This document shows positions 3,534-34,259 of a DNA stretch of 34,259 nucleotides, piece by piece. Both the position numbers and the translations under genes were made by a program. The stretch is taken from assembly GCA_026395655.1 (NCBI GenBank), contig JAPLYJ010000064.1, forward strand, positions 1 through 34,259. The letters are read 5' to 3'. The DNA comes from Candidatus Parcubacteria bacterium (GTDB lineage: Bacteria > Patescibacteriota > Minisyncoccia > UBA6257 > JAPLYJ01). Every line of letters begins with the position of its first letter. The first letter of the stretch is position 1. The notes beneath the pieces were generated by a model. The model was not told the DNA's origin and did not search any database. It was given only the letters and a program-made list of their open reading frames with translations.

Positions 3534-3566
3534 AAGTAGAATTAATAAACCCTTAGAAGATGCTAG
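3493..3566. repeat. Perfect tandem duplication, 2 x 37 bp (3493-3529 and 3530-3566), inside uvrA
   Basis: ttaaaagtagaattaataaacccttagaagatgctag occurs twice head to tail with no mismatch. 37 is not a multiple of 3. The peptide [12 protein letters not shown] is encoded at both ORF ends. Confidence 0.97.
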
Positions 3567-23657: not shown

Positions 23658-25385
23658 ATGGACGGGAAAAAGATTATATCAGGGATGCCATCAATGTCTC
23701 CAAAAACACCAGAGGCAATGGAGCAACCAAAAGAAATTGAAAAAAAGTTTTTAATTGAAACCTTGCCTGATAATTTAGAAGATTATCCTTCTGAAGAAAT
23801 TATGCAAGGATATATTGCTATTACCGACGATGGTACGGAAGTTCGTTTACGCAAAAAAGGTGATATGTATTTTCAAACAATTAAAAGTGGGAATGGAAAA
23901 ACAAGAACAGAATCTGAAATTGAGATAACAGAAGAACAATTTAATATACTTTGGAAAACAACGGTTGGTAAAAGATTAGAAAAAAAGAGATATAAAATTC
24001 CTCATGCAAATGGAGTGATTGAATTAGATATCTATGGCGAAGGCTTAGAAGGTCTTGTAACAGCTGAAATAGAGTTTCCATCCGAAGAGGAAAGTGATGC
24101 GTTTGTTGTCCCAACTTGGTTTGGCGAAGAAGTAACAGAAGACAAAAGATATAAAAATCAAAAATTAGTATCTAGTGGTATGCCTGAAGAAGAGAATTTA
24201 GAAATATTAGATATCCCTGAATATAATTTAGAAGATGGCATAGAAAAAATAGTATCTCTTATTAATGAAAAATTATCCTCACAAACAGGTCCTGTTTTGA
24301 TTGAAATTGCAGGGGGTTCGGCTTCTGGCAAAACAAGCGCTGTCTCTCGGAAAATAAAAGAAATTTTTGGTGATGAAGCAATTATTTTTTCAATGGATGA
24401 TTACTATCGCGGAAAAACATTTATGAACAGCGAAGCAGAAAAAGGGAATAATCTAAATTGGGATCAACCAGAAGCTCTTAATTTAGAACTATTGCAAGAA
24501 CATTTAAAAAATTTAAAAAGCGGAGAGCAAATTGAAAAACCAGTATATGATATGAAAACTAGCGAACCCATAGATACAGAGATAATTCAACCTAACAGAG
24601 TTATTATCGTAGAAGGTCTATTCGCCCTTAATGATATCATCTCAGGAGAGGGTGATATTAAAGTATTTGTTGATATTGGTACGCATGGAAGGATTTTAAG
24701 AAGACTTTTGCGTGATATAGAGAGAACGGGTCAAAAGCCTGCTGATATTTTAAGGTATTTTGCTGAGGTAGTAGAGCCAATGCATGAAAAGTATATTCAA
24801 AACACGAAAAAGAACGCTAACATCATTGTAGATAATGAATATAGTCCAAAAGTAGAAGCTCAAAAGTCTGGCTTACATGAAATTCAATTAAAATTTAAAA
24901 TTGAATTAGATGCAGAAACTTTACGCAAGCTTGGCGCAGAAAGATTAAGTTCAACTACTCAAGTTGATTATTATTACAATCCTAAGGACAGAAATTTGAT
25001 TGAAACGAATGAGATTTTAAGAATTCGCCAAGAAGGGGATCACAAAATCTTAACTTATAAAGGTCCGAGGATGGAATCGGAATATAGGAAAAGACCAAAA
25101 TTTGAATTTGAAATTGATGAAGAAACAAATGAAAAATTCTTATCAATTTATGGTGACCAGATAAAAGAGATTAGAAAAGAAAGAATTTTATATGAATTAG
25201 AGGGAATAATATTTTCCATAGATTCAGTCATGAAAATAGAAGATGGGAAAGAAATAGATTTAGGCAAATTTATTGAGATTAGATCTACTAATAAAGAAAT
25301 AAATGATGAAAAAATAAAAGATGTAATATCAAAGCTTGGTCTGTCTTTACCGGATGGTATCAAAGAGTCGTATTTTGAAATGTAA
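23658..25385 (+). CDS. Triple-domain protein: CYTH (triphosphate tunnel metalloenzyme), uridine-kinase/PRK-family P-loop kinase, then a second CYTH (CyaB-like)
   Basis: CYTH1: EIEKKFL (ExExK), EVRLRKKG, ESEIEI, RYKI, ELDIY, AEIEF. Kinase: IAGGSASGKTS, SMDDYYRG, NWDQPEALN, VIIVEGLFAL, RRLLRDI. CYTH2: HEIQLKFKI, ILRIRQEG, LTYKGP, FEFEI. Confidence 0.8.
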   Translation: MDGKKIISGMPSMSPKTPEAMEQPKEIEKKFLIETLPDNLEDYPSEEIMQGYIAITDDGTEVRLRKKGDMYFQTIKSGNGKTRTESEIEITEEQFNILWKTTVGKRLEKKRYKIPHANGVIELDIYGEGLEGLVTAEIEFPSEEESDAFVVPTWFGEEVTEDKRYKNQKLVSSGMPEEENLEILDIPEYNLEDGIEKIVSLINEKLSSQTGPVLIEIAGGSASGKTSAVSRKIKEIFGDEAIIFSMDDYYRGKTFMNSEAEKGNNLNWDQPEALNLELLQEHLKNLKSGEQIEKPVYDMKTSEPIDTEIIQPNRVIIVEGLFALNDIISGEGDIKVFVDIGTHGRILRRLLRDIERTGQKPADILRYFAEVVEPMHEKYIQNTKKNANIIVDNEYSPKVEAQKSGLHEIQLKFKIELDAETLRKLGAERLSSTTQVDYYYNPKDRNLIETNEILRIRQEGDHKILTYKGPRMESEYRKRPKFEFEIDEETNEKFLSIYGDQIKEIRKERILYELEGIIFSIDSVMKIEDGKEIDLGKFIEIRSTNKEINDEKIKDVISKLGLSLPDGIKESYFEM

Positions 25386-25410
25386 TTTATTAATTAAAAA
25401 AACAAAAAAA

Positions 25411-26271
25411 ATGAATCAAAACAATTTTGTATCTGGAATGCCTCAGATGCCTCAAGAAAGCAAAGAGAGCGAACCAAAAATTGCGAAATTATCAGTTAAT
25501 GATTTTGCTGAAAAAATTGGGATTCAGCCCGATCAGCAAGGTCGTGTTACTTTTGCTCCAGAGCATGATAGGTTAGCATATGAATACGCTGAGAAATTTG
25601 CTCGCGACAATAAAGCAGAAAGAGTTATTATAGATGGTATTGCTTCTCCTGGAGTGATAGCTAGTTTTTTACATGGTATGCACCCAGCAGAAGGTTATTT
25701 AACCTATATGTCAAAAGACGCAGAAGGTAAAATGACAAAAGGTGAGACTAAAGTTTTAGAACCATTACCTCAAGGCGAAGGACAAGGACCAGAAGGTTTT
25801 ACATGGGTAAAAAAAGAAACCGAGGATTATACCTTAGTGGAATTTAATCTTGCTGGAGATTTTAAGATAGAAGATTTAGATAAAGTTATTCCTCCTGATG
25901 TTAATCCTGCAAAACCAGTGTTAATTTCCGGTCGTGGTCCTCTTTATCTAACTCATACAATTGCTGCTGGGTACAGGCATTATAAAGGCATTCCAGGGGT
26001 TGGTTTTTATCAGCCAGCAAGTAAATTCGGACCAGCTAAAACTGAAGTTGGTGTTTCTCACAATGAAGAGTTACCTTTAGGATTGAATTTTGGTGAACCA
26101 TCTGAAATTGGCACAGCTAAAGAGTTACATGAAAAACGAATTAAAGAGGGATTATCTGAAATAAAAAAGGGTAAAATTGTTTCTGTAGAAACAAATGATA
26201 AAATCATAAAATTTACTTTAGATAGCGGTGAAACATACAGTTTATCTGTTCGCGAGGTAACAAAAGAATAA
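25411..26271 (+). CDS. Csx3-like protein (possible tandem/pseudo-dimeric Csx3 fold), 286 aa
   Basis: YTLVEFNL...KPVLISGRGPLYLTHTIAAGYRH...VGFYQP...VGVSHNEE is collinear with my recollection of A. fulgidus Csx3 (FTLIHFEI...GVVISGRGPIWLHCFLAHKYHH...VAVYDPRLG...VVQSHSE). An upstream segment RVIIDGIASPGVIASFLHGMHP looks like a degenerate second copy. The ATG at 25411 is preferred over the alternative start at 25336. Confidence 0.55.
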   Translation: MNQNNFVSGMPQMPQESKESEPKIAKLSVNDFAEKIGIQPDQQGRVTFAPEHDRLAYEYAEKFARDNKAERVIIDGIASPGVIASFLHGMHPAEGYLTYMSKDAEGKMTKGETKVLEPLPQGEGQGPEGFTWVKKETEDYTLVEFNLAGDFKIEDLDKVIPPDVNPAKPVLISGRGPLYLTHTIAAGYRHYKGIPGVGFYQPASKFGPAKTEVGVSHNEELPLGLNFGEPSEIGTAKELHEKRIKEGLSEIKKGKIVSVETNDKIIKFTLDSGETYSLSVREVTKE

Positions 26272-26357
26272 TCTCAAAAATATAGAAGATTCTAATTCAA
26301 TACGACAAGGATATTAAAATATAATTAATAAGAGATAATTGATAATGAGTTAATACT

Positions 26358-29300
26358 ATGTCAGAACAAATTAATCTTTCAAAAGGGAAAGAAAAAAAGG
26401 AAACCATCTTAATACCTGAGCAACAAGTTATTAAAAATTATATTAATGAAGTTCTTGTAGCTGATAATAAATTAGATCTACCAGTAGTAATAATTTCTAG
26501 TCCCGAAGCCCAAGAAATAGTGAAGCAAAAGCTCATTACGTGTTTTAAAAACAATAATATTAATGATGCTATTAAAATTAATGATACATTTAAGCTACCA
26601 AAGGAAATAATCCAAGAAGCAGTTAAACAAGGAATTATTTATCATTTGAGAGGCCATTATATTTATAATGCTTTTGAAATTAGTAATGCATTTAATTTGC
26701 CACCAAAAATAGTCCAAGAAGTAACCAAACAAGCGCTCATTAACTATTTTGAATATGGATATATTGAGTCTGCTATCGAAATTACTGAGATATTTAATTT
26801 ACCTGATGAAATAATTTTTAGTCTTGAAGTGCAACAGGCAGCAGCACAACCATTTATTAGTAAATTTAAATATGGTTCTCTTGACGATGCTATTAAAATT
26901 AATGATACATTTAAGCTACCAAAGGAAATAATTCAAGAAACAGCTAAACAAGCGTTTATTGTATGGTTTTGCAACCATCGTATTGATGATGTTATTTATG
27001 ATATTAGCATAGCCCAATATGCATTTAATTTACCCAAAACAATAGCCCAAGATGCACCTAAACAAGGATATATTGAATGCCTTAAGAGTGGTTTAATTGA
27101 CGCTGCTATAGAAATCAAAGATATATGCAAATTATCTTTATCTAAAGAGATAATTTCTGATCCAGAAGTACAAAAAGGAATTGAAGAAGGATTTATTAAT
27201 TATCTTCATAATAATCAAATTGATATTGCTATTAAAATTAAAGATGAATTTAATCTACCAGACGAAATAGTCCAAAAAGCAGTAGAACAAGTAGTTATTA
27301 AACATTTGCGTGAGCATCAAGTTAATATTGCCATTAAAATCAAAGACAAGTTTAATTTATACATATCTCCACAAAAAATAATTGATCAGATCCCTAAGCT
27401 AGTTGATATCATTGAACAAATATCTCAATTGGCACCACCATTTAAGATGCAAACGGAGAAATCTAGCGAGTTGGTAATTGGATTGTGTCGTTTTATTAAT
27501 AAGCCAGATTATTTAATAAATCTATTAAAAGAAAAACTCTATTTGATTGATGCCATAATGAGTAACCCTCGTTTTGGTTCAAGACTTCTTTTGAAATATC
27601 CTGAATTTGACGAAATGTCTAAAGAAAATATAGAAAAACTTTTTTTAACTAAACAAAAAATATTAGAGCAAAATCCTGATATAGATCCGGAATCATTAGA
27701 ATTTCGTCAATTAATGCAGGAGGAATTAAAAACATTCAAAAACAATCCCGAAATAATGGAAGAAATCGAAAAGCAAGGAATTAATTTAGAAGAATGGCTT
27801 AATCATTCTGAAACTAGTTATTTTAACCTTTCTTCTAAGGGTAGCGAGATTAGTTTTTCAGAGAAAATCAGAACGCCAATAGATAGAATTAAAGAAACTA
27901 TTGATAGCTATGCCCATACCATTAAATCAGTTTTAAAAGAATATATACTAGAATTAAAAAAACATGAGATAGCTTTAGAAAATGATGAATCTGTTAAAGA
28001 GCAGATTACAAAAATGGAGGGTGCTTTAGAACAAGCCCAAGCAGAAGGCAATGATACAAAAATTAAAGGAATAGAAAGAGGTCTATTGACTCAAAGAGAA
28101 AGATTAAATAATCCTAAAAAGGGTATTCTTTGGGACAAACTCATGGGTGATATTGAAGCTTTCCAAGGTCTTAAAAATGATTGTTTTGATGCTCAAAAGA
28201 AATTAATAGAAGCAGAGGACAAATTAACAGGAGCTCTTGCAGGTAAAGCACCTTCTGGCAAAGGTGTTTTAGAGATAAAACAAAAAATTGCTCAAGCTAA
28301 AGAAGAATTAAGAAATAAGTTTAATGTTTTAGAAAGAAGAATTGAAAATTTTAAAATTAATTTACCCAAACTTTTATCACCGTGCCTTGGGCAAGAAAGA
28401 AGTGAAGCCTTGATTCAGGAAATAGACCAGGCAGTAGCTGAGCAATTTTATCATTTTGAATTAGATAGAACTGTTTTAGCAAATATGTTTTCTGAAAGAA
28501 ACGACAAGGAAACAGAGCAATTAGAGTCCAGACCAATGAGTATTTTTGTTTGGGCGAGAAATCCTGACATTGATCTTTATCAAGGTGATTATTCACCCTG
28601 TTGCATTTGCATAGATAGTTATGATGCTACAGAATCAACAATAGCAGATTATAATACAGATCTTGGCATTCAAATCGTTAATATTTGGGATGAAGCAAAA
28701 AACGAACCAGTTACTGCTGCCTGGTGTTGGTTGGGTCAAAACGAAAATGGAGAAAAGGCATTAGTGATAGATAACATTGAATCCAATGTACTTTTTAGTA
28801 CTAATTTTTCAGAACAATTATCTAAAGAATTATTAGATTATATTATAAATTACGCTAAAAAAATTGGAGTTGATAAAGTAATTCTAGGAGTAGACTATAG
28901 TGACCTACCTAGTGCTTCTAAGTTATTAGAATTAAAATGGGATAATAATGAATATGAAAAAATTGGTGGAAGCAATAGAGAATATGGGTATTATTTAGAG
29001 TCGGAAGGAGATATTATCAAGCTTATTTGGGACAGGAAAGAAGACGAAACAATAAAACAACCAAAAGAAGCAAGAAAACAAAAAGAAACTATTAAATTTG
29101 AAAACATATCTGTTACTAATTTGACTGAAGAAAATTTTGATGAGATTAGACAATTAGAAGCTAAAATTTATCAAGATACTGGATTAGCCCAAGGTTCAGG
29201 ATTAATAGAAAATATAAAATCTGATAATGGCTTAGAATACTCATTAATAATTAGAGGTAAACAACCAGATCAAGAAGAAAAAATTATTGGATATATCGTA

Positions 29301-29621
29301 GCCGTAGATGACGAAACCGATGAAGGTGATCCCTGCATATATTTAGAAGATATTGCAGTGTTAGATGAAGCCCAGGGTCAAGGATTGGGTTGGGAGATGC
29401 TTAAAGAATTAGTTAATAAGTTAAAAATTAAAGCACAAAAAAACAAAAAACCAATATTGCTAGATATGCATTTAAGAAAAAATTCCCAGGGATTATTACA
29501 AAAACACAAAGAAGATTTAGAAGAGATGGGGGTAAGATTAACAGAAGAAGCATTAGAACCTAATTATTATGATACAAATGAAGATGCGTTGTATCAGATT
29601 TATCAAATTCAAATAGATTAA
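26358..29621 (+). CDS. Large multidomain protein (1087 aa): N-terminal array of about 34-aa helical repeats, a coiled-coil-like middle, a Cys/Trp-rich domain and a C-terminal GNAT N-acetyltransferase
   Basis: Repeats F(N/K)LPxEIxQxAxKQxxIxxL...I(D/N)xAIxIxD x about 8. GNAT motif A IYLEDIAVLDEAQGQGLGWEMLKELV at roughly aa 995-1020. Confidence 0.8.
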   Translation: MSEQINLSKGKEKKETILIPEQQVIKNYINEVLVADNKLDLPVVIISSPEAQEIVKQKLITCFKNNNINDAIKINDTFKLPKEIIQEAVKQGIIYHLRGHYIYNAFEISNAFNLPPKIVQEVTKQALINYFEYGYIESAIEITEIFNLPDEIIFSLEVQQAAAQPFISKFKYGSLDDAIKINDTFKLPKEIIQETAKQAFIVWFCNHRIDDVIYDISIAQYAFNLPKTIAQDAPKQGYIECLKSGLIDAAIEIKDICKLSLSKEIISDPEVQKGIEEGFINYLHNNQIDIAIKIKDEFNLPDEIVQKAVEQVVIKHLREHQVNIAIKIKDKFNLYISPQKIIDQIPKLVDIIEQISQLAPPFKMQTEKSSELVIGLCRFINKPDYLINLLKEKLYLIDAIMSNPRFGSRLLLKYPEFDEMSKENIEKLFLTKQKILEQNPDIDPESLEFRQLMQEELKTFKNNPEIMEEIEKQGINLEEWLNHSETSYFNLSSKGSEISFSEKIRTPIDRIKETIDSYAHTIKSVLKEYILELKKHEIALENDESVKEQITKMEGALEQAQAEGNDTKIKGIERGLLTQRERLNNPKKGILWDKLMGDIEAFQGLKNDCFDAQKKLIEAEDKLTGALAGKAPSGKGVLEIKQKIAQAKEELRNKFNVLERRIENFKINLPKLLSPCLGQERSEALIQEIDQAVAEQFYHFELDRTVLANMFSERNDKETEQLESRPMSIFVWARNPDIDLYQGDYSPCCICIDSYDATESTIADYNTDLGIQIVNIWDEAKNEPVTAAWCWLGQNENGEKALVIDNIESNVLFSTNFSEQLSKELLDYIINYAKKIGVDKVILGVDYSDLPSASKLLELKWDNNEYEKIGGSNREYGYYLESEGDIIKLIWDRKEDETIKQPKEARKQKETIKFENISVTNLTEENFDEIRQLEAKIYQDTGLAQGSGLIENIKSDNGLEYSLIIRGKQPDQEEKIIGYIVAVDDETDEGDPCIYLEDIAVLDEAQGQGLGWEMLKELVNKLKIKAQKNKKPILLDMHLRKNSQGLLQKHKEDLEEMGVRLTEEALEPNYYDTNEDALYQIYQIQID
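26466..27390 (+). repeat. Intragenic array of about 8 degenerate 34-codon repeats. Two segments 321 nt apart are nearly identical at the DNA level.
   Basis: gatgctattaaaattaatgatacatttaagctaccaaaggaaataat is identical at 26565-26611 and 26886-26932 (both encode DAIKINDTFKLPKEII). Confidence 0.85.
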
Positions 29622-29637
29622 GATGTTTTACCACCTA

Positions 29638-29666
29638 TTGACAAATCTTTAAGAATATGCATAATA
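29638..29666 (+). promoter_or_regulatory. Consensus sigma70-type promoter P1, 17 nt after the stop of the 1087-aa gene
   Basis: TTGACA (29638-29643), 17 nt, ATAATA (29661-29666). Confidence 0.6.
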
Positions 29667-29671
29667 ACAAA

Positions 29672-29976
29672 TAGAACATTGAGATTAGTTTTTTAAAAAT
29701 GCTTTGGATGATTGCTGACTGTTATTTAGCTACTTAGAGATAGGTGATTAAATAACAGCCAGCAACATCGGCTGACACCTCGCCCTAGGTGGAAAGGCAC
29801 CCCTAGGAACGAAAGGAGACGCCTCCGTATGGTTCCATACCCTGCAGGTGTTCCCCCTTAGCATTTTTTTAAGGCGACGACACCGCCTTATTCATCCCCG
29901 CCCAGTCTGGTGTCGAGACTAGGGCTTATAGAAAAAAATTTGGTAAGTCTCAGCCGAAATATGACTGAGACTTACC
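29672..29976 (+). ncRNA. Candidate structured RNA A1 (about 300 nt), unknown class
   Basis: No long ORF. Contains a 17-bp AT-rich hairpin (29712-29765), a CCTAGG hairpin, a 10-codon mini-ORF (29829-29861), an AAGGCG/CGCCTT hairpin (29871-29889), a hairpin with a GGUGUCG loop (29901-29924) and a terminal 12-bp hairpin (29942-29976). Confidence 0.45.
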
Positions 29977-29981
29977 ACCAT

Positions 29982-30010
29982 TTGACAAATTCTGATAGAT
30001 ATGCTATACT
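29982..30010 (+). promoter_or_regulatory. Consensus sigma70-type promoter P2
   Basis: TTGACA (29982-29987), 17 nt, TATACT (30005-30010). Confidence 0.6.
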
Positions 30011-30015
30011 AAGTG

Positions 30016-30206
30016 AGTAATTGAATAGAGTTAGGTTTTTAAGCTAGTTTGTCCCCAAAGCTTCCAGAACTTTACAATTTAAAAAGTATACATTAAGGAG
30101 AGGCCGCCCGAGCTGGGGCGGTAATACAAATCAGCTAAAACGGCTAAGCGAAGTATCTTTAGGTTAATTTTTAATCTTCTCCGGATATTTCGCTTAGCCG
30201 TTTTTT
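30016..30206 (+). ncRNA. Candidate small RNA B (about 190 nt) ending in a long intrinsic terminator
   Basis: No ORF after its AAGGAGAGG motif. Contains a CCGCCC gagct GGGCGG hairpin. The terminator CGGCTAAGCGAA...TTCGCTTAGCCG (30141-30200, extendable to about 18 bp) is followed by TTTTTT. Confidence 0.45.
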
Positions 30207-30752
30207 AAACGGTTAACAGCACCTTAACATATTGTTCAAAATCATCTGCCATTCACTTTTTAAGGAGAGAGTGGCTACCTTAATAGGTAGTAACAGGAGA
30301 GAGTCCAAGGAGAGAGAATGGATTATAGATAATTTTGAATGAAGCCCAAACCAAATTAGCGAGTTAGAGAATTAAATTAAAAGGGCAAAAATATTTAATT
30401 CTTCAAATACCAAATATTGGTTAAAAAATAAACTCGCTGCTCCTAATTTAGCGGTAAAACTGCGGTTAGGACTGCTGCAATTAAGATTAACCCCCTTAAT
30501 TGGTCAGCAGGCCTTAGATTTGCTTGATACAAATTAAGAAAATTTAAGGCCTGCTAATTCTCAGCAGGAGAAAGGTGGTGGTGCCGATGATCGCATCGGG
30601 CATCCCGCCGTAACAAATCAAGGACGGCACCGTCCTCTCTATCCGAGAAGGGTTGACACATCAGTCTTGGTGCCGAGATTGATGGAAAAACGGTTTATGG
30701 GGTAAGTTTACCGAGACTTCGAGAGAAATAAACTCTCGGCTAAACTTACCCC
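30207..30752 (+). ncRNA. Hairpin-dense non-coding stretch including RNA A2, the 3'-module paralogue of A1
   Basis: Three AGGAGAGAG copies (30263-30316). A multibranch unit closed by GCGAGTT/AACTCGC. A perfect 10-bp GCAGGCCTTA/TAAGGCCTGC stem. A mini-ORF at 30587-30613. An AGGACG/CGTCCT hairpin (30621-30636). A GGUGCCG-loop hairpin (30659-30684). A terminal hairpin at 30699-30752. Confidence 0.4.
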
Positions 30753-30843
30753 CTCACATTCAGATTATAAATTAAAAATAATTTGTAATTTGAAACATGA
30801 GGATAGAGTTCTTTTAAAAATAAAAAATCGCTTCTAGCTATTT

Positions 30844-30892
30844 CTGGCTGCTGTTTAGGTATTTAATATTTAGATATTTGAATAGCAGTCAG
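30844..30892 (+). promoter_or_regulatory. Conserved 14-bp leader hairpin (copy 1)
   Basis: CTGGCTGCTGTTTA ...21 nt... TGAATAGCAGTCAG with three G-U pairs. The paralogue at 31800-31848 differs only on the 3' arm, and pairing is kept. Confidence 0.6.
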
Positions 30893-30947
30893 AACGACCC
30901 TCAGAAGTCCTGACCGTAGTATAGCAGGCCGAGGAAGAAGGAGAAAC

Positions 30948-31217
30948 ATGCAATGCACGAAGGAGTGGAAAACCCAGGATGTTATTACACGCGGGGAACG
31001 CGTAACCTGGTGGGAGGCAAACCACTACCGGGTAATTGTCCCGGTATTCGAAAGTAGCAATGAGGAATTTGAGTTTCTCATTGCCCACAAGCTAGAACAT
31101 GCGGACCAGTACGGTGATTCTTCCGGAGATTCTTCCTTCTCAGATTTCTTTTGGGACAGGATAGAGAGCTTAGCAGAGACACTCGGGGTGCCTGCCCCGC
31201 AAAGGTCGTCTCGCTAA
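30948..31217 (+). CDS. Possible small protein (89 aa) in module copy 1. Coding status uncertain because the segment is hairpin-rich.
   Basis: SD gaAGGAGaaacATG. Protein-like sequence with a GDSSGDSS tandem repeat. It also contains perfect inverted repeats (31026-31046, 31057-31084, 31184-31199). Confidence 0.35.
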   Translation: MQCTKEWKTQDVITRGERVTWWEANHYRVIVPVFESSNEEFEFLIAHKLEHADQYGDSSGDSSFSDFFWDRIESLAETLGVPAPQRSSR

Positions 31218-31268
31218 GTCTACGGAATAATAGTTGGAGAGGTGTCCCGAATCCTCTAAAAAATCGGG

Positions 31269-31294
31269 GGCAGAGCGATGCCGATCGCTCTGCC
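31269..31294 (+). promoter_or_regulatory. Conserved GC-rich hairpin downstream of the module ORF (copy 1)
   Basis: GGCAGAGCGAT gccg ATCGCTCTGCC. The paralogue at 32112-32135 (AGCAGAGCGA tgcg TCGTTCTGCT) carries a G-C to A-T compensatory pair. Confidence 0.6.
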
Positions 31295-31327
31295 AAATGG
31301 CCCTTCGGGGTTTATTCGGGAGGTTCT

Positions 31328-31363
31328 GGAAAGTTTCCTCGGTAAAAACTTTCCAATCTTTTT
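31328..31363 (+). terminator. Rho-independent terminator (module copy 1, first unit)
   Basis: GGAAAGTTT cctcggtaa AAACTTTCC then AATCTTTTT. Confidence 0.7.
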
Positions 31364-31441
31364 CAGCTCATAAACAAAATTTGTGGTCTGAAAGAGGAGA
31401 AATATTAGTTCTTTACAATTTTTAATATTTCCTTATTCTAA

Positions 31442-31496
31442 TTTTGTGTTGCTAATTTAGTAATTTATTTTAGATTATTAAATCGGCAACACAAAA
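31442..31496 (+). promoter_or_regulatory. Conserved leader hairpin immediately upstream of the SD of the small TM ORF (copy 1)
   Basis: TTTTGTGTTGC ...33 nt... GCAACACAAAA. Paralogue at 32267-32321. Confidence 0.6.
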
Positions 31497-31517
31497 AAGA
31501 AAGGAGAAAAGAGAAAA

Positions 31518-31667
31518 ATGAGTCCAGAAGATACGGGACCTTTTTGGGGCCCACTGGTTATCTACGGTCCCTTGTTGTTGGGGCTCGCAATTGTAGCGGT
31601 TATATCCCGTTACAATGAATGGAAAAAGGAGATCACTAATCTCCTAGAAAGGAGAAAAAGAAAATAA
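31518..31667 (+). CDS. Small membrane peptide (49 aa): one TM helix plus a basic tail
   Basis: SD aAAGGAGaaaagagaaaaATG. Sequence MSPEDTGPFWGPLVIYGPLLLGLAIVAVISRYNEWKKEITNLLERRKRK. Below the ORF-track size cut-off. Confidence 0.5.
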   Translation: MSPEDTGPFWGPLVIYGPLLLGLAIVAVISRYNEWKKEITNLLERRKRK

Positions 31668-31679
31668 GAAAAGGCGGAC

Positions 31680-31716
31680 GGCAGGTTCCGCTAAGGGTTA
31701 TAACCTGCCTCTTTTT
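31680..31716 (+). terminator. Rho-independent terminator (end of module copy 1)
   Basis: GGCAGGTT ...14 nt... AACCTGCC then TCTTTTT. Confidence 0.75.
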
Positions 31717-31799
31717 CAGATTATAAATTAAAAAAAATTTGTAATTTGAAACATGAGGTTAGAGTTCTTTTAAAAATTAAAAAACGCTTCTAGTTATTT

Positions 31800-31848
31800 C
31801 TGGCTGCTGTTTAGATATTTAATATTTAGATATTTAAATAGCGGCCAG
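31800..31848 (+). promoter_or_regulatory. Conserved 14-bp leader hairpin (copy 2)
   Basis: CTGGCTGCTGTTTA ...21 nt... TAAATAGCGGCCAG. Confidence 0.6.
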
Positions 31849-31898
31849 GAATTGGTCGACTAATTCTTACCTAAGAAGGTAAGAGAAAGGAGTATGGG

Positions 31899-32090
31899 AT
31901 GGGGATCCCAGTTGGTTATACAAAACACCTAATACTGTGTTTTGTGGAACAGGCGCAGGATCAGGCGCCTGTCACGGGCACAGGCGACTCCACGTGGTAT
32001 GTGGAGTCGCTATGTAATATCATCCGCCGTTTATTGGCGGATGAGCCAGATGAGCCATTCCTAGCAGTAGTTAATCAAGGGGTGCCCTAA
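31899..32090 (+). CDS. Possible small protein (63 aa). More likely a multi-hairpin RNA, or dual-use.
   Basis: SD aAAGGAGtatgggATG, but 31865-32043 consists of six consecutive perfect hairpins. The start codon sits inside one of them. Confidence 0.25.
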   Translation: MGIPVGYTKHLILCFVEQAQDQAPVTGTGDSTWYVESLCNIIRRLLADEPDEPFLAVVNQGVP

Positions 32091-32111
32091 ATCCTCTTTA
32101 AAAAAAATCGG

Positions 32112-32135
32112 AGCAGAGCGATGCGTCGTTCTGCT
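32112..32135 (+). promoter_or_regulatory. Conserved GC-rich hairpin downstream of the module ORF (copy 2)
   Basis: AGCAGAGCGA tgcg TCGTTCTGCT, homologous to 31269-31294. Confidence 0.55.
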
Positions 32136-32163
32136 AGGTTGTGCCCTGCGGGGTATAGATTCG

Positions 32164-32203
32164 CAGGGAGGCGTGTTGGTTACACGAACTCCCTGTTCTT
32201 TTT
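32164..32203 (+). terminator. Rho-independent terminator (module copy 2, first unit)
   Basis: CAGGGAG ...18 nt with inner GTGT/ACAC... CTCCCTG then TTCTTTTT. Same position as 31328-31363 but a different sequence. Confidence 0.7.
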
Positions 32204-32266
32204 CAGCTCATAAACAGAATTTGTGATCTGAAAGAGGAGAAAGTATTAGTTTTTTTCTTTTTCTAA

Positions 32267-32321
32267 TTTTGTGTTGCTAATTTAGTAATTTACTTTAGAT
32301 TATTAAATCGACAACACAAAA
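32267..32321 (+). promoter_or_regulatory. Conserved leader hairpin upstream of the small TM ORF (copy 2)
   Basis: TTTTGTGTTG ... CAACACAAAA. Confidence 0.55.
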
Positions 32322-32338
32322 AAAGAGGAGGCATTAAA

Positions 32339-32482
32339 ATGACCATCGAACAATTAGCACGGCTCCTACTTTTAGTAGGAGTGATCATGATTGCAGCTTA
32401 GATCATGGCTGCAATCACCTGGAAGAAGTATTCCAGGTGGTGGATCTGGAAGTATAAAATAGAAAGGAGGGAAAAAAGATAA
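32339..32482 (+). pseudogene. Paralogue of the small TM peptide interrupted by an in-frame TAG (32399-32401)
   Basis: SD agAGGAGGcattaaaATG. Sequence MTIEQLARLLLLVGVIMIAA*IMAAITWKKYSRWWIWKYKIERREKR. It shares TM + WKK + ERR(K/E)KR architecture with 31518-31667. The TAG lies in the loop of a perfect 10-bp hairpin, TGATTGCAGC/GCTGCAATCA. Confidence 0.35.
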
Positions 32483-32528
32483 AAAAAGCGGATGGCAGGT
32501 TTCGCTAACGGTTATACCCTACCTCTTT

Positions 32529-32641
32529 TTCAGATTATAAATTAAAAATAATTTGTAGTTTGAAAGAAGGGGATATTAGCTCTTTAAAAAACATTTTTGC
32601 AAGGAATACAATTATATTTTAGATGTAGTTGTATTCCTCGC
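32529..32641 (+). repeat. Third, partial module copy (box retained, different leader hairpin)
   Basis: 32529-32565 matches the box at 30759-30795 and 31715-31751. This is followed by the hairpin GCAAGGAATACAA...TTGTATTCCTCGC (32599-32641). Confidence 0.7.
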
Positions 32642-32689
32642 AAAAAGATAGCCACTAAAAACTATACGTGGCAGAAAGGAGGTAATAAA

Positions 32690-33076
32690 ATGAAAGAATT
32701 GGAAGATGCTTTCAACTTTTTGGATAAAAAAATCCAAGAAGTAAAAGATGAGGAAGAGGCAACAAAAAAACGTGCTGCCATTTTTCCCGAAACTGCCCTG
32801 AAGTTGTTACAAAGGGCAACTAGAGAGACAGTGCATATTCTTCTGCCTCACTCCACAGGCAAAATGTGCCTAATCTTTTCACCTCCCATCGAAAAGATTC
32901 AAAAATGGTGGCTTTGCATATATCATGGAGAGCCATTATCGTTTGTTTTTGACGACGACGGATGGGCCAATAACATGCTCGTCAAAGAATGCCTCCAGGC
33001 GTTTATTGATAGGGCTGTTGAGCCCAAAGTATTTCTGGCTTTTCCCAAAGAGCCAGAAATGTTTCCTCAAGTTTAA
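32690..33076 (+). CDS. Hypothetical protein (128 aa)
   Basis: SD aAAGGAGGtaataaaATG at the internal Met of ORF 32597-33076. Protein-like sequence (MKELEDAFNFLDKKIQEVKDEEE...). No motif recognised. Confidence 0.55.
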   Translation: MKELEDAFNFLDKKIQEVKDEEEATKKRAAIFPETALKLLQRATRETVHILLPHSTGKMCLIFSPPIEKIQKWWLCIYHGEPLSFVFDDDGWANNMLVKECLQAFIDRAVEPKVFLAFPKEPEMFPQV

Positions 33077-33167
33077 CTTTAACGTTAGCTCTTTCTGATG
33101 CGAGGCAGAAAGGAAAAAAATGGGGGAGGGATAAATAACATTCCTCCCCAATTTCTCATAAAAAAAA

Positions 33168-33195
33168 TTGACAGTTAATCTCAGTTTGATAATAT
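33168..33195 (+). promoter_or_regulatory. Consensus sigma70-type promoter for the rod-like RNA
   Basis: TTGACA (33168-33173), 16 nt, TAATAT (33190-33195). Confidence 0.55.
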
Positions 33196-33202
33196 TAAAG
33201 TA

Positions 33203-33323
33203 CAAACAAGAACCGCTTAGAGGCGGACTAAAGTGAAGAAGTGATGTCCATCTTTCGGGGTGGAGGAATCTCTCTCCTTACATCATTAATTCATATTTGG
33301 TCTGCCCTTAAGCGGTTTTTTTT
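33203..33323 (+). ncRNA. Candidate rod-like small RNA (about 115 nt), unknown class
   Basis: Long closing helix AACCGCTTAGAGGCGGAC / GTCTGCCCTTAAGCGGTT. Inner GTGATGT/ACATCAT helix. Apical hairpin with a UUCG loop. Followed by TTTTTTT. No ORF. Confidence 0.45.
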
Positions 33324-33342
33324 ATTTTTTAAAAAATATTTC

Positions 33343-33370
33343 TTGCCAAAATATGTTAAAAGTGTATAAT
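33343..33370 (+). promoter_or_regulatory. Promoter of tRNA-Lys
   Basis: TTGCCA, 16 nt, TATAAT (33365-33370). The tRNA 5' end lies about 10 nt downstream. Confidence 0.55.
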
Positions 33371-33379
33371 ATTTTTTAT

Positions 33380-33452
33380 GCCTCCATAGCTCAATTGGTA
33401 GAGCAATAGCCTTTTAAGCTAGTGGTTGCAGGTCCGAGTCCTGCTGGAGGCA
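33380..33452 (+). tRNA. tRNA-Lys (anticodon UUU), 73 nt, no encoded CCA
   Basis: Cloverleaf folded by hand: GCCTCCA TA GCTC AATTGGTA GAGC A ATAGC CTTTTAA GCTAG TGGTT GCAGG TCCGAGT CCTGC TGGAGGC A. Confidence 0.88.
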
Positions 33453-33476
33453 CAATTTAAAAAAATTAATAAAAAT

Positions 33477-34259
33477 ATGTTTAAATTAGATCTCAAAAAA
33501 AAGTCTTGGCTCACAACAATTATCATTTTTGTTTTAGCCATCTTAGCTGTTTTCTACGTGTATCCTGCGCCATGGAATAATCTAGCTATTAAAATTAATA
33601 ACAGTCAGAAAGCTAAATACAATCGTGTTATTGTTCATTTTCCATATTTTATCAACAAACCTTTTAGCTTGGGCTTAGATTTAATTGGAGGTACGGCTTT
33701 AACTTATAAAGCAGATTTATCTAATATTGCTCCTTCAAATTACACTAATGCCATGGATGGTTTGCGTGATGTTATTGAAAGAAGGGTAAACTTTTTTGGA
33801 GCTAAAGAACCTAGAATCGCTGTAGAAAAAGTAGGGGATGAATGGCGTTTGGTTGCAGAATTAGCTGGTATCACTGATATTAAAGAAGCTATCGCTGCCA
33901 TCGGAGAAACACCTTTTTTGGAATTCAAAGAAGCTAGAACCGATGAAGAAACTAAAAGTATTTTAGAACTTCAAAAAGCAGAATCTGTAAAACCAGAACC
34001 TGACATTACTATCTTGTCCCAAGATCCATATTTCAAACCTACCAGCTTAAATGGTAGATATCTTAAAACTGCCAATGTACAATTTGATTCTACAACTAAC
34101 GAACCTATCATTGATATCCAATTTGATGAACAAGGTTCTCAGATTTTTCAAGAATTAACAAAAAATAATATTAACAAACCTTTAGCTATTTATTTAGATG
34201 GTGCCCCTATCAGTACCCCAGTAGTACGTGAAGAAATTTCTGGAGGTAAAGCACAAATC
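33477..34259 (+). CDS. secD: Protein translocase subunit SecD, 3' end beyond the window
   Basis: MFKLDLKKKSWLTTIIIFVLAIL (TM), LGLDLIGGTALTYKAD, VIERRVNFFGAKEPRIAVEKVGDEWRLVAELAGI. Open to the last base of the window. Confidence 0.85.
   Translation, partial: MFKLDLKKKSWLTTIIIFVLAILAVFYVYPAPWNNLAIKINNSQKAKYNRVIVHFPYFINKPFSLGLDLIGGTALTYKADLSNIAPSNYTNAMDGLRDVIERRVNFFGAKEPRIAVEKVGDEWRLVAELAGITDIKEAIAAIGETPFLEFKEARTDEETKSILELQKAESVKPEPDITILSQDPYFKPTSLNGRYLKTANVQFDSTTNEPIIDIQFDEQGSQIFQELTKNNINKPLAIYLDGAPISTPVVREEISGGKAQI

What the first reader, a model, noticed from the sequence alone, without database searches (positions are those of the whole stretch)
31865..32043. Six back-to-back perfect hairpins occupy an apparent 63-codon ORF
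Within 180 nt the hairpins are:
- TCTTACCT-aaga-AGGTAAGA (31865-31884)
- TGGGAT-gggg-ATCCCA (31895-31910, contains the ORF start codon)
- CAAAACAC-8nt-GTGTTTTG (31921-31944)
- CAGGCGC-8nt-GCGCCTG (31950-31971)
- GCGACTCCAC-7nt-GTGGAGTCGC (31984-32010)
- CATCCGCC-7nt-GGCGGATG (32021-32043)

All stems are mismatch-free and all sequences differ, so this is not a repeat family or a CRISPR array. The density is very unusual for coding DNA.

The copy-1 counterpart (30948-31217) also carries perfect inverted repeats: TACCGGG/CCCGGTA at 31026-31046, GCAATGAG/CTCATTGC at 31057-31084, and CGGGG/CCCCG nested in GC(a)GAGAC/GTCTCGC.

The ORFs may therefore be spurious, or the RNA may be dual-function.
Basis: seen in the sequence. 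Interest (0 to 1): 0.7.

Follow-up and report, generated by a model that had tools for sequence, protein, structure and literature searches.

The report
Hairpin-packed small gene in RNA-structured array
A 180-base run of six flawless hairpins is real and far beyond chance. It sits in one unit of a 3.5-kb array of short, extremely structured transcription units in a tiny candidate-phylum bacterium, where even a well-conserved protein gene is folded this way, so the hairpins do not show that the small reading frame is fake.

Summary
Six mismatch-free hairpins lie at 31865-32044, with stems of 8, 6, 9, 8, 10 and 9 bp. Dinucleotide shuffles give a mean of 0.22 such hairpins and never more than 3 in 5000. 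RNA fold z-scores are -8.5 (+ strand) and -11.4 (- strand).

The window is a chromosome contig of an AT-rich (31% GC) candidate-phyla-radiation bacterium, probably a Parcubacterium. The hairpins belong to one unit, which I call U5, of an array at 29638-33149. The array lies between a GNAT gene and tRNA-Lys. Its units are short, GC-enriched and hyper-structured. A conserved ~45-nt RNA hairpin separates the last five units (five copies here, and also found in four other contigs).

Hairpin density does not argue against coding in this genome:
- A 211-aa gene conserved in more than 140 Parcubacteria proteins folds at z = -11.
- A 128-aa array ORF folds at z = -8.4.
- In both, synonymous codon order is tuned for pairing.

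The 63-codon ORF has AAAGGAG six nt before its ATG; that signal followed by a frame this long arises in 0.2% of shuffles. It has no homologue among 1.84 billion representative proteins.

The best reading is a probably translated orphan cistron whose RNA is selected for generic hairpin structure. A non-coding RNA remains a serious rival. The function is unknown. Relatives carry hammerhead ribozymes between similar cassettes.

The parts
29638..33149 (+). The whole array of short, GC-enriched, hyper-structured transcription units (U0-U7). It lies between the 1087-aa GNAT gene (ends 29621) and the tRNA-Lys promoter and gene (33343-33453).
   Evidence: Composition. Nearly every 150-nt window in this range has z < -3, against a window-wide mean of -0.8. 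Canonical sigma-70-like promoters occur only at 29638-29665 and 29982-30010, and a terminator at 33123-33149.
31680..31716 (+). Terminator-like hairpin GGCAGGTT/AACCTGCC plus a U-run. It ends the preceding unit (U4, a 49-aa membrane peptide).
   Evidence: Sequence. It is conserved, with changes, in the copy at 32494-32530.
31705..31762 (+). Conserved inter-cassette RNA hairpin, with core TTCAGATTATAAA..AATTTGTAATTTGAAA at 31715-31751. This is the upstream boundary of unit U5.
   Evidence: Five copies in the window against 0 expected. The same element occurs in L004 (twice), L005, L006 and L007. The + strand folds better than the - strand in 9 of 10 instances because the arm mismatches are G.U pairs, and the basal stem covaries.
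31791..31861 (+). Long AU-rich leader hairpin of U5. It is 91% identical to the leader of U3 (30835-30905).
   Evidence: Alignment A1. Fold. 19-24% G.U pairs, so it is an RNA-level structure of the + strand.
31849..32077 (+). Variable cassette of U5. This is unique sequence lying between flanks shared with U3.
   Evidence: Alignments A1 and A2. No similarity to the U3 cassette. No other copy or complement in the window.
31865..31884 (+). Hairpin 1 (8 bp stem, loop AAGA), in the 5' UTR.
31886..31892 (+). Shine-Dalgarno sequence AAAGGAG, in the mostly unpaired linker between hairpins 1 and 2 and 6 nt before the ATG.
   Evidence: Sequence. Its 3' half is unpaired in the MFE and it is fully unpaired in the centroid. 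Joint SD-ATG-ORF test gives p = 0.002.
31895..31910 (+). Hairpin 2 (6 bp stem, loop GGGG). It contains the start codon at 31899-31901.
31899..32090 (+). 63-codon ORF (MGIPVGYTK...NQGVP). It is an orphan with net charge about -5. Its stop codon lies inside the conserved 3' flank.
31920..31945 (+). Hairpin 3 (9 bp stem, 8-nt loop).
31949..31972 (+). Hairpin 4 (8 bp stem, loop AGGATCAG).
31966..31986 (+). Alternative 7-bp pairing CGCCTGT/ACAGGCG. It competes with hairpins 4 and 5.
31984..32010 (+). Hairpin 5 (10 bp stem, 7-nt loop).
32020..32044 (+). Hairpin 6 (9 bp stem, 7-nt loop).
32078..32203 (+). Conserved 3' module of U5. It contains hairpins 32078-32097, 32112-32135 and 32144-32153, then the terminator-like hairpin 32164-32195 and a U-run.
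   Evidence: Alignment A2 with the U3 copy shows compensatory and G.U changes in every stem. Fold. 12-17% G.U pairs.
32196..32238 (+). Next inter-cassette hairpin, the downstream boundary of U5 and the start of U6.
30948..31217 (+). It is equivalent by position only.
   Evidence: It was called as a gene in independent Logan contigs identical to the window. It has no homologue but itself. z = -2.5.

Best explanation
The hairpin cluster is the body of one cistron (U5) of a 3.5-kb array of small, autonomous, extremely structured RNA units in the chromosome of a Parcubacteria-type (candidate phyla radiation, CPR) bacterium.

Each of the five downstream units (U3-U7) has the same layout:
1. A conserved inter-cassette RNA hairpin.
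2. A long leader hairpin.
3. An exposed Shine-Dalgarno sequence.
4. A short, lineage-specific ORF.
5. One or more 3' hairpins.

The six perfect hairpins act at the RNA level on the + strand transcript. They are generic structure rather than a specific conserved fold. They make the RNA compact and poor in single-stranded segments. This would stabilise it or shield it against single-strand-specific nucleases or RNA-targeting systems.

The SD is left mostly unpaired between hairpins 1 and 2, so the 63-codon orphan ORF is probably still translated.

The stems have no mismatch or wobble pair. The cassette also contains small direct duplications. The flanks are 91-96% identical to those of unit U3. 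Together these suggest a young sequence.

Shown:
- The structure and its statistical significance.
- The array anatomy.
- RNA-level, + strand conservation of the flanking hairpins.
- Real coding genes in this lineage carry the same kind of structure through synonymous-site choice.

Inferred:
- Translation of the 63-codon ORF.
- Co-transcription and processing of the units.
- The protective role of the hairpins.
For: Significance of the hairpins.

The transcript is on the + strand and its structure is at RNA level:
- Leader and 3' hairpins are conserved between U3 and U5 with compensatory and G.U changes.
- The inter-cassette hairpin is more stable on the + strand in 9 of 10 instances from five contigs, with a covarying basal stem.

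Hairpin-dense sequence can be coding here:
- 211-aa gene: more than 140 homologues; AlphaFold pLDDT 94; z = -11.2 sense against -7.3 antisense; synonymous-permutation z = -8.1.
- Its L014 homologue folds at z = -8.4, whereas the L015 homologue folds at z = -0.2.
- Only about 60% of the window's pairs survive in either homologue, so the structure is lineage-specific and generic rather than one conserved fold.
- 128-aa ORF: z = -8.4 sense against -3.5 antisense; synonymous shuffle z = -5.5.
- 63-aa ORF: synonymous shuffles z = -3.7 and -4.7.

Translation signals:
- AAAGGAG lies 6 nt before the ATG. In the MFE its first bases pair weakly with 31860-61 and GAGUA is unpaired; it is fully unpaired in the centroid.
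- SD + ATG + at least 55 open codons arises in 0.2% of shuffled cassettes.
- GC by codon position is 0.62, 0.39, 0.52 in the ORF frame only.
- Nine of the ten instances of the inter-cassette hairpin precede an ORF of at least 48 codons that has a purine-rich ribosome-binding-like sequence. One of the nine has an in-frame TAG, and the L005 instance lacks such a sequence.

Processing analogy:
- Relatives have type III hammerhead cores between or before such cassettes.
- Clustered hammerheads flanking single genes are thought to cut polycistronic RNA into gene-length mRNAs (PMC3088659).
- Canonical promoters are found only at the head of the array.
Against: - No homologue of the 63-aa product exists in 1.84 billion representatives or in the 5.8 billion-cluster word search.
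- The ORF was not called as a gene anywhere in the collection.
- AlphaFold single-sequence confidence is low (pLDDT 56).
- The open frame on its own is only p = 0.055.
- 38% of the region's bases sit in perfect stems, which is a heavy constraint for a functional protein.
- The codon phase of the stems shows no significant preference for third-position pairing (3 of 5, or 4 of 6; my count).
- Units U0-U2 of the same array are as structured (z = -9.5, -4.8, -10.6) but carry only 8-10-codon ORFs.
- A cluster of four perfect hairpins in relative L015 is non-coding.
- The neighbouring duplicate membrane-peptide ORF is interrupted by TAG, so the U5/U6 copy may be decaying.
- The core stems contain no G.U pair and the - strand folds at least as well, so a DNA-level origin is not excluded.
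- The segment 31466-32262 was not recovered in any independent contig.
- No expression data exist.
Confidence: 0.45

Rival explanations
1. U5 is a non-coding structured RNA, for example a small RNA, a decoy or sponge, a protein-binding platform or a stabilising module. Under this reading the 63-codon ORF is a by-product of GC-rich sequence in an AT-rich genome.
For: - The ORF is an orphan and was not called as a gene.
- An open frame of this length arises in 5.5% of shuffles, even when the hairpin architecture is preserved.
- U0-U2 in the same array are hairpin-rich and lack long ORFs, yet share the leader type.
- L015 4749-4956 is a non-coding cluster of four perfect hairpins, z = -7.1.
- The density of perfect stems is five times that of the coding array units.
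- An alternative pairing at 31966-31986 resembles a structural switch.
Against: - A strong SD at 6-nt spacing left in the linker between hairpins is unlikely by chance (p = 0.002 jointly with the ORF).
- The frame stays open across the entire variable cassette.
- The GC1 > GC3 > GC2 pattern occurs only in this frame.
- Nine of the ten units led by the conserved hairpin carry an ORF with a ribosome-binding-like sequence.
- There is no Rfam match at E <= 5.
- No recurrent loop motif is present, and no complementarity to anything in the window of 11 nt or more.
Confidence: 0.3
2. The palindromes are a DNA-level feature. They could be products of template-switch (quasi-palindrome-perfecting) mutation in a young, weakly constrained sequence. 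Alternatively they could be hairpins used in single-stranded DNA for recombination, replication or transfer.
For: - All 50 core stem pairs are Watson-Crick.
- Both strands and ssDNA fold equally well (z = -8.5, -11.4 and -9.6).
- The cassette also holds short direct duplications and a three-fold reuse of ACAGGCG/CGCCTGT, as expected from local copying.
- The cassette lies between 91-96% identical flanks that could support recombination.
Against: - The hairpin excess is confined to transcribed, GC-enriched units and is absent from about 28 kb of housekeeping genes (0.9 per kb).
- Other units show clear sense-strand bias and G.U use.
- No integrase, relaxase, Rep or transposase is present in the window.
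- No attC-like core sites are present.
- A purely mutational process would not keep the SD and the frame intact.
Confidence: 0.13
3. The cluster is a guide-RNA-type or protein-recognition hairpin array, for example a TIGR-like stem-loop array of the kind reported in CPR bacteria and phages.
For: TIGR stem-loop arrays consist of tandem units closed by variable palindromic stems. They occur in CPR genomes (PMC12045711). Here there are tandem stems that are each unique, with a 25-36-nt period.
Against: [quoted passage not shown] The loops here are only 4-8 nt and share no motif.
- No alternating repeats are present.
- No Nop-domain protein is detected in any window ORF of at least 90 aa.
- The conserved 211-aa protein is a beta-rich fold with no PDB match, so it is not a Nop domain.
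Confidence: 0.04
4. The segment is an assembly or sequencing artefact.
For: The segment 31466-32262 lies between repeats where independent Logan contigs break, and it was not recovered independently.
Against: - Assemblers do not create unique, perfectly palindromic 8-10-bp stems.
- The flanks on both sides are confirmed at 100% identity in several samples.
- The segment continues the array's grammar (leader, SD, 3' module) without a break.
Confidence: 0.03

Closest known systems
Hammerhead-flanked gene cassettes in prophages and bacterial genomes (Perreault et al. 2011, PMC3088659)
   Same: Short single-gene units are separated by a small conserved RNA element on the sense strand, and the gene content varies. 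Relatives of this organism carry type III hammerhead cores in exactly such positions next to the 211-aa gene.
   Different: The window has no hammerhead. The separator here is a ~45-nt AU-rich hairpin of unknown activity. The coding bodies themselves are saturated with hairpins, which is not a described feature of those cassettes.
RNase III-processed polycistronic early mRNAs of phage T7, and intercistronic stabiliser hairpins (own knowledge)
   Same: Irregular long hairpins lie between cistrons. 5' and 3' terminal stem-loops would protect the processed mRNAs. A strong promoter occurs only at the head of the array.
   Different: Processing is not shown here. The units also carry U-rich terminator-like hairpins. 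There is no sequence relationship.
Type I toxin-antitoxin loci in tandem copies (hok/sok, ldr, ibs/sib, aapA/isoA, txpA/ratA; own knowledge)
   Same: The units are tandemly duplicated, short and very structured. They have 5' and 3' stem-loops. Small single-pass hydrophobic peptides with basic tails alternate with the cassettes (49 aa at 31518-31667, and a TAG-interrupted copy at 32339-32482).
   Different: The hairpin ORF encodes an acidic, apparently soluble peptide. No antisense RNA promoter was identified. There is no homology to known toxins.
Dual-function RNAs that both encode a peptide and act as structured RNA (RNAIII/hld, SgrS/SgrT, SR1/SR1P; own knowledge)
   Same: A short ORF with an SD is embedded in a highly structured RNA.
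   Different: In known cases the base-pairing or structured domain and the ORF are mostly separate. Here the stems cover most of the ORF, and no target complementarity was found.
TIGR-Tas stem-loop arrays (Faure et al. 2025, PMC12045711)
   Same: Tandem stem-loops with variable palindromic stems, found in CPR bacteria.
   Different: There are no box C/D motifs, no dual spacers, no Nop-domain protein, and the loops are too short (see the membership test).
Palindromic elements that sit inside ORFs (Rickettsia palindromic elements, REP/BIME; own knowledge)
   Same: Hairpin-forming DNA lies within an open reading frame of an AT-rich reduced genome.
   Different: Those are dispersed repeat families. 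Here every hairpin is unique, and none recurs in the 34-kb window or in the fetched loci.

Membership tests
Any curated RNA family (Rfam 15) | Covariance-model score at or above the family's gathering threshold | tested here: not met
   Only tRNA-Lys passes in the window. At E <= 5 over 29500-33600 nothing overlaps 31865-32044 (the nearest, a weak MIR5185 match, ends at 31859) and no ribozyme or riboswitch is credible.
CRISPR array | Direct repeats of 24-48 nt interspaced by unique spacers | tested here: not met
   No direct-repeat family within 31865-32044. Tandem Repeats Finder reports only two ~2-copy micro-duplications.
TIGR array (dual-repeat type) | Two alternating 8-12-nt repeats (edge, loop) separated by ~9-nt spacers | tested here: not met
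   No alternating repeats. Definition taken from PMC12045711.
TIGR array (stem-loop type) | [quoted passage not shown] | tested here: not met
   The loops are 4-8 nt and share no motif. Definition.
TIGR-Tas system | Adjacent Nop-domain (Tas) protein | tested here: not met
   No PF01798-type hit in any ORF of at least 90 aa. The 211-aa protein model (pLDDT 94) is beta-rich and has no PDB match at E <= 0.001. Divergent TasA in the unseen rest of the genome cannot be excluded.
Intrinsic (Rho-independent) terminators | GC-rich stem directly followed by a U-tract | tested here: not met
   Of the six hairpins only 31895-31910 is weakly terminator-like. The others have no T-run.
Integron cassette array | attC sites with R''(RYYYAAC)/R'(GTTRRRY) cores between cassettes, and an IntI integrase | tested here: not met
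   The inter-cassette hairpin lacks these cores (sequence). No integrase is present in the window. The rest of the genome was not seen.
Hammerhead-flanked cassettes | CUGAUGA...GAAA catalytic core with stems I-III between the genes | tested here: not met
   No core in the array. It is present in relatives L014, L015, L016 and L017 below the Rfam threshold (25-29 bits against 48.5).
Type I toxin-antitoxin locus | Small hydrophobic toxin ORF | tested here: inconclusive
   This holds for the neighbouring 49-aa ORFs but not for the hairpin ORF, which is acidic and not hydrophobic.
Type I toxin-antitoxin locus | Antisense or overlapping antitoxin RNA | tested here: inconclusive
   A conserved - strand terminator-like hairpin with a T-run lies in the 3' module (31294->31269). 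No - strand promoter was found.
Csr/Rsm-type sponge RNA | GGA motifs presented in most hairpin loops | tested here: not met
   Only the loop of hairpin 4 (AGGAUCAG) contains GGA.
Protein-coding gene | Ribosome-binding site, start codon and open frame beyond chance | tested here: met
   AAAGGAG-N6-ATG followed by 63 codons. Joint occurrence in 0.2% of shuffles.
Protein-coding gene | Homologues with codon-level conservation | tested here: not met
   No homologue found, so dN/dS and covariation cannot be computed.
Protein-coding gene | Evidence of translation | not testable with these tools
   No Ribo-seq or proteomics data are available.

The most novel reading that the evidence does not exclude
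Parcubacteria may carry a previously undescribed kind of 'RNA island'. In this reading, arrays of orphan small genes and non-coding units are expressed as hyper-structured RNAs. Selection for generic hairpin content would be strong enough to rewrite synonymous sites of conserved genes and to build de novo sequences that are almost pure hairpin. The units would be separated by dedicated RNA elements. Relatives use hammerhead ribozymes for this. This lineage uses a conserved ~45-nt hairpin (UUCAG.U.AUAAA...UUUGU...UGAAAG), which would then be a new processing site, possibly self-cleaving or recognised by a dedicated nuclease. The six-hairpin ORF would be a very young member caught between non-coding RNA and gene.
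Probability: 0.15. Interest if true: 0.8.

Novelty: new variant of a known kind. Interest (0 to 1): 0.55.

Why it matters
- Annotation. Hairpin density cannot be used to dismiss ORFs in these genomes, because conserved proteins are encoded by equally structured RNA.
- Biology. Something in this CPR lineage favours messages with almost no single-stranded RNA. Candidates are an RNase, an RNA-targeting defence, or a need for long-lived or transferable transcripts. That is a testable clue to the RNA metabolism of organisms that cannot yet be cultured easily.
- New RNA element. The conserved inter-cassette hairpin takes the place of hammerhead ribozymes in relatives. It is a concrete candidate for a new RNA processing element.
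- Gene birth. If the ORF is translated, it is an extreme example of a peptide encoded almost entirely by palindromes, which bears on de novo gene origin.

Tried and rejected
- Homology for the 63-aa and 89-aa products: word-index search and full HMMER search found nothing but the 89-aa protein itself. Pfam, PHROGs and PADLOC found nothing.
- Independent contigs covering the hairpins: look-ups of the 63-aa and 49-aa products found nothing. One look-up used a wrong start coordinate and is void. Contigs found through neighbouring ORFs break at the repeats, at 31465 and 32263.
- DNA similarity of the array to phages and plasmids: none.
- Pattern scans of viral contigs for the inter-cassette motif and for hairpin 5: none.
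- Synteny through homologues of the 211-aa gene: the neighbourhood is not conserved.
- AlphaFold of the 63-aa peptide without an alignment: pLDDT 56, uninformative.
- Codon phase of the stems: 3 of 5 (or 4 of 6) in the third-with-third-position register, not significant.
- Complementarity of the cassette to other parts of the window, as a test for a trans-acting sRNA: nothing of 11 nt or more.
- Considered and rejected on defining features (see the membership test): CRISPR, TIGR, attC, terminator stack, Csr sponge, and a hammerhead or other known ribozyme in the window.
- Reading the conserved motif as a sigma-70 promoter (TTGAAA -35): no acceptable -10 in several copies, and none in L006 and L007. 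The G.U pattern points to an RNA hairpin instead.
- Literature searches for hairpin-rich genes or hammerheads in CPR found nothing directly relevant.
Full report
**1. The observation**

An exhaustive scan extends them to stems of 8, 6, 9, 8, 10 and 9 bp with loops of 4-8 nt. It also finds a seventh, mutually exclusive pairing, CGCCTGT/ACAGGCG, at 31966-31986.

The significance tests all point the same way:
- In 5000 dinucleotide-preserving shuffles of 31860-32050, the mean number of non-overlapping perfect hairpins (stem of at least 6 bp) was 0.22 and the maximum was 3. Stems of at least 8 bp averaged 0.014, against 5 observed.
- The RNA MFE is -88.5 kcal/mol against -53.5 +/- 4.1 for shuffles, z = -8.5.
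- The reverse strand gives z = -11.4, and ssDNA parameters give z = -9.6.
- The hairpins persist when the entire unit 31780-32205 is folded (z = -10.0).

This segment is the extreme of the window. It holds 21.6 perfect hairpins (stem of at least 7 bp) per kb. The 28 kb of housekeeping genes hold about 0.9 per kb.

Three details of the finding need correcting:
- Hairpin 1 is in the 5' UTR and hairpin 2 holds the ATG, so five hairpins occupy the ORF, not six.
- 'Copy 1' (30948-31217) is only the positional equivalent. It shares no similarity with the 63-aa ORF.
- Copy 1 folds only modestly better than chance (z = -2.5).

**2. Where it sits**

The window is a complete 34,259-bp contig of a bacterial chromosome. 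It carries uvrB, a split uvrA, uvrC, typA, EF-P, a PoxA-type synthetase, an FeFe hydrogenase and secDF. Coding GC is 31% and GC3 is 22%.

The only species-representative genome that carries the array's signature motif is a Candidatus Nomurabacteria MAG. The homologues of a neighbouring gene come from Kaiserbacteria, Pacebacteria and Minisyncoccus. The organism is therefore a Parcubacteria-type CPR bacterium.

The region between the 1087-aa GNAT gene (ends 29621) and the tRNA-Lys gene (33380-33453) contains no ORF longer than 159 codons. It consists of GC-enriched islands (45-59% GC) in AT-rich spacers. Almost every 150-nt window there has a fold z-score below -3, against a window-wide mean of -0.8.

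**3. Anatomy of the array**

Two near-consensus sigma-70 promoters head the region: TTGACA-16-CATAAT at 29638 and TTGACA-17-TATACT at 29982.

They lead into three hairpin-rich units:
- U0, 29672-29980, z = -9.5.
- U1, 30017-30210, z = -4.8.
- U2, 30420-30758, z = -10.6.

These units carry only micro-ORFs.

Five further units follow, U3 to U7. Each is introduced by the motif TTCAGMTYATAAA...AATTTGTRRTYTGAAA, at 30759, 31362, 31715, 32202 and 32529. That is 5 matches against 0 expected.

Each of these units has the same order:
1. The terminator-like hairpin of the previous unit.
2. The motif hairpin.
3. A long AU-rich leader hairpin.
4. AAGGAG-type SD and ATG.
5. A short ORF.
6. 3' hairpins.

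The ORFs are:

| Unit | ORF | Coordinates |
|---|---|---|
| U3 | 89 aa | 30948-31217 |
| U4 | 49-aa single-pass membrane peptide with a basic tail | 31518-31667 |
| U5 | 63 aa, the finding | 31899-32090 |
| U6 | second copy of the membrane peptide, interrupted by TAG at 32399 | 32339-32482 |
| U7 | 128 aa from the SD-preceded ATG | 32690-33076 |

U3+U4 and U5+U6 form a tandem duplication. Their flanks are 91-96% identical, while the cassettes (30893-31237 and 31849-32077) are unrelated.

The flanking structures act at the RNA level on the + strand:
- Stems in the 3' module differ between the copies by compensatory or G.U-forming changes.
- Leader hairpins contain 19-24% G.U pairs.
- The motif hairpin is more stable on the + strand in 9 of 10 instances, drawn from the window, L004, L005, L006 and L007. 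Its basal stem covaries.

Because this hairpin is part of the RNA and lies upstream of each unit, the units are probably co-transcribed and then separated. No acceptable -10 element follows it in several copies. This step is inferred.

**4. Does hairpin density mean 'not coding'? No, not here**

The 211-aa ORF at 22826-23461 has more than 140 homologues at 46-74% identity and a confident predicted fold (pLDDT 94). Yet it shows the same behaviour as the array units:
- It has 49% GC, with GC3 of 48%.
- Its RNA folds at z = -11.2 on the sense strand and -7.3 on the antisense strand.
- Permuting synonymous codons destroys the excess structure (z = -8.1).

Its homologue in L014 is equally structured (z = -8.4). 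It shares an 11-bp hairpin with the window gene, and in another stem it has a C-G pair where the window gene has a U.G pair. The homologue in L015 is not structured (z = -0.2). There the shared 11-bp stem is broken by synonymous changes (GGC and ACC in place of GGT and ACT).

Only about 60% of the window's predicted pairs survive in either homologue, against about 40% for shifted controls. What is selected, or generated, is therefore lineage-specific generic structure. It is not a conserved fold.

Other ORFs follow the same pattern:
- The 128-aa ORF of U7: z = -8.4 sense, -3.5 antisense, synonymous shuffle z = -5.5.
- Cassette ORFs behind the same motif in the Nomurabacteria MAG are moderately structured on the sense strand only (z = -3.0 and -3.7, against -0.7 and -0.9).
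- The 63-aa ORF fits the series: synonymous shuffles give z = -3.7 and -4.7.

**5. Is the 63-codon ORF translated?**

Evidence for translation:
- AAAGGAG lies 6 nt before the ATG, in the linker between hairpins 1 and 2. This linker is largely unpaired in the fold.
- An SD-ATG followed by at least 55 open codons occurs in 0.2% of shuffled cassettes.
- The frame spans the whole variable cassette.
- GC by codon position (0.62, 0.39, 0.52) is coding-like in this frame only.
- Nine of the ten motif-led units, in five contigs, carry an ORF of at least 48 codons with a purine-rich ribosome-binding-like sequence. One of the nine is TAG-interrupted, and the L005 ORF lacks such a sequence.

Evidence against translation:
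- There are no homologues at all and no gene call on record.
- AlphaFold confidence is low.
- The open frame alone has p = 0.055, even with the hairpin architecture preserved.
- The stems show no significant codon-phase preference.
- Hairpin-rich units without ORFs occur in the same array (U0-U2).
- In relative L015, four perfect hairpins lie in a non-coding leader (4749-4956; z = -7.1).
- The partner gene in U6 is disrupted.

I put translation at roughly 55-60%.

**6. What the relatives add**

In L014, L015, L016 and L017 the 211-aa gene lies in similar islands of small orphan ORFs and untranslated stretches. These islands contain type III hammerhead cores: CUGAUGA, then GUCC-GAAA-GGAC, then GAAA, with a proper stem III and GUC or GUA cleavage triplets.
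- One lies between the 211-aa gene and the next small ORF (L014 10708-10750; E = 0.002).
- One lies 90 nt upstream of the 211-aa gene (L015 3224-3267; E = 0.033).

Both score below Rfam's threshold because their stems are short.

Clustered hammerheads that flank single genes are known. They are thought to cut long transcripts into gene-length mRNAs (PMC3088659).

The window has no hammerhead. Its conserved inter-cassette hairpin occupies the equivalent position. That makes it a candidate processing or end-protecting element. This is an analogy, not a demonstration.

**7. Mechanism proposed**

The array is transcribed on the + strand. The units are delimited by the inter-cassette hairpins and capped by 5' leader and 3' hairpins. 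The bodies of the units, coding or not, are under pressure to be double-stranded almost throughout.

The most economical purpose is protection of the RNA. This could mean a long half-life, or evasion of a single-strand-specific nuclease or an RNA-guided defence.

U5 is the extreme case. Three features suggest it is a recently formed or recently replaced cassette:
- The stems have no wobble pairs.
- The cassette contains micro-duplications, GATGAGCCA x2 and GGAACAGGCGCA x1.9.
- The ACAGGCG arm is reused.

The same features keep a DNA-level, template-switch origin open.

**8. Known systems compared**

I tested Rfam families, CRISPR, both TIGR array types, intrinsic terminators, attC, Csr-type sponges and hammerheads on their defining features. 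None was met (see the membership table).

The TIGR stem-loop arrays of CPR bacteria (PMC12045711) are the most tempting look-alike. They require two spacers and box C/D motifs inside each stem, plus a Nop-domain protein. Here the loops are 4-8 nt and no Nop protein is seen. The 211-aa protein is a beta-rich fold with no match in PDB or BFVD.

Functionally the nearest analogues are:
- Ribozyme-delimited or RNase III-delimited gene cassettes.
- The highly structured mRNAs of type I toxin loci.
- Dual-function RNAs.

**9. Verdict**

The feature is real and striking, and it is not explained by any curated family. The hairpins are best read as an extreme instance of a lineage-specific habit of encoding small genes in hyper-structured RNA. 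The ORF is probably genuine but unproven, and the function is unknown.

I rate it as a new variant of a known kind (structured or dual-function coding RNA in a processed cassette array). Interest is moderate to high, mainly for the general phenomenon and for the candidate processing hairpin.

Noticed in passing
window 22826-23461 (+): A 211-aa protein of unknown function is conserved in more than 140 Parcubacteria sequences (46-74% identity). Its gene has 49% GC in a 31% GC genome and an extraordinarily structured mRNA (z = -11.2). Homologues in L014 and L015 are also 17-18 GC points richer than their loci. The AlphaFold model is confident (pLDDT 94), is beta-rich with a helical middle, and has no PDB or BFVD match.
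   Followed up: partly
L014 10708-10750; L015 3224-3267; L016 2606-2628; L017 411-433 (all +): Minimal type III hammerhead ribozyme cores (CUGAUGA-GUCCgaaaGGAC-GAAA) lie next to the 211-aa gene homologues in related CPR contigs. They score below Rfam's gathering threshold (25-29 bits). I found no report of hammerheads in CPR in the held literature.
   Followed up: partly
window 30759-30795, 31362-31393, 31715-31751, 32202-32233, 32529-32565; L004 212-242 and 1180-1207; L005 2673-2705; L006 802-831; L007 1494-1522: A conserved ~45-nt RNA hairpin (UUCAG.U.AUAAA-loop-UUUGU...UGAAAG) with a covarying basal stem. In most copies it lies 5-7 nt after a variable hairpin and upstream of a small ORF preceded by an SD-like sequence. 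It occurs in contigs ranging from about 30% to 60% GC. It is not in Rfam. It is a candidate processing or stabilising element.
   Followed up: partly
window 31518-31667 and 32339-32482 (+): Two copies of a 49-codon single-pass membrane peptide with a basic C-terminal tail (..ERRKRK / ..ERREKR), which resembles a type I toxin. The second copy has an in-frame TAG at 32399-32401. It is either a pseudogene or a 20-aa product.
   Followed up: no
window 29829-29861 and 30587-30613 (+): Two SD-preceded micro-ORFs lie in the ORF-less, hairpin-rich units U0 and U2. Both end in Gly-(Val/Ile)-Pro-Pro-stop (MVPYPAGVPP*, MIASGIPP*). These could be stalling leader peptides.
   Followed up: no
window 31259-31294 (-), with its counterpart at 32100-32135: In the conserved 3' module, an A-run precedes a strong hairpin on the + strand. 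On the - strand this reads as an intrinsic terminator (GGCAGAGCGATCGGCATCGCTCTGCC plus a T-run). It may end a short antisense RNA, but no - strand promoter was identified.
   Followed up: no
L015 4749-4956 (+), identical in L017 1921-2128: A cluster of four perfect hairpins (stems 7-10 bp) within 200 nt, in a non-coding stretch upstream of a 167-aa orphan gene and beside the 211-aa gene homologue. The region 4700-5120 folds at z = -7.1.
   Followed up: partly
window 1827-3533 and 3523-4371 (+): UvrA appears split into two overlapping ORFs of 568 and 282 aa. This could be a frameshift, a sequencing error or a genuinely split gene.
   Followed up: no
window 23658-29621 (+): Three unusual genes lie directly upstream of the array: a uridine-kinase (PRK)-CYTH fusion of 575 aa, a 311-aa protein with a Csx3 (cyclic-oligoadenylate ring nuclease) domain, and a 1087-aa protein with about 30-residue internal repeats and a C-terminal GNAT acetyltransferase. 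They may form a signalling or defence module. Any link to the array is unknown.
   Followed up: no
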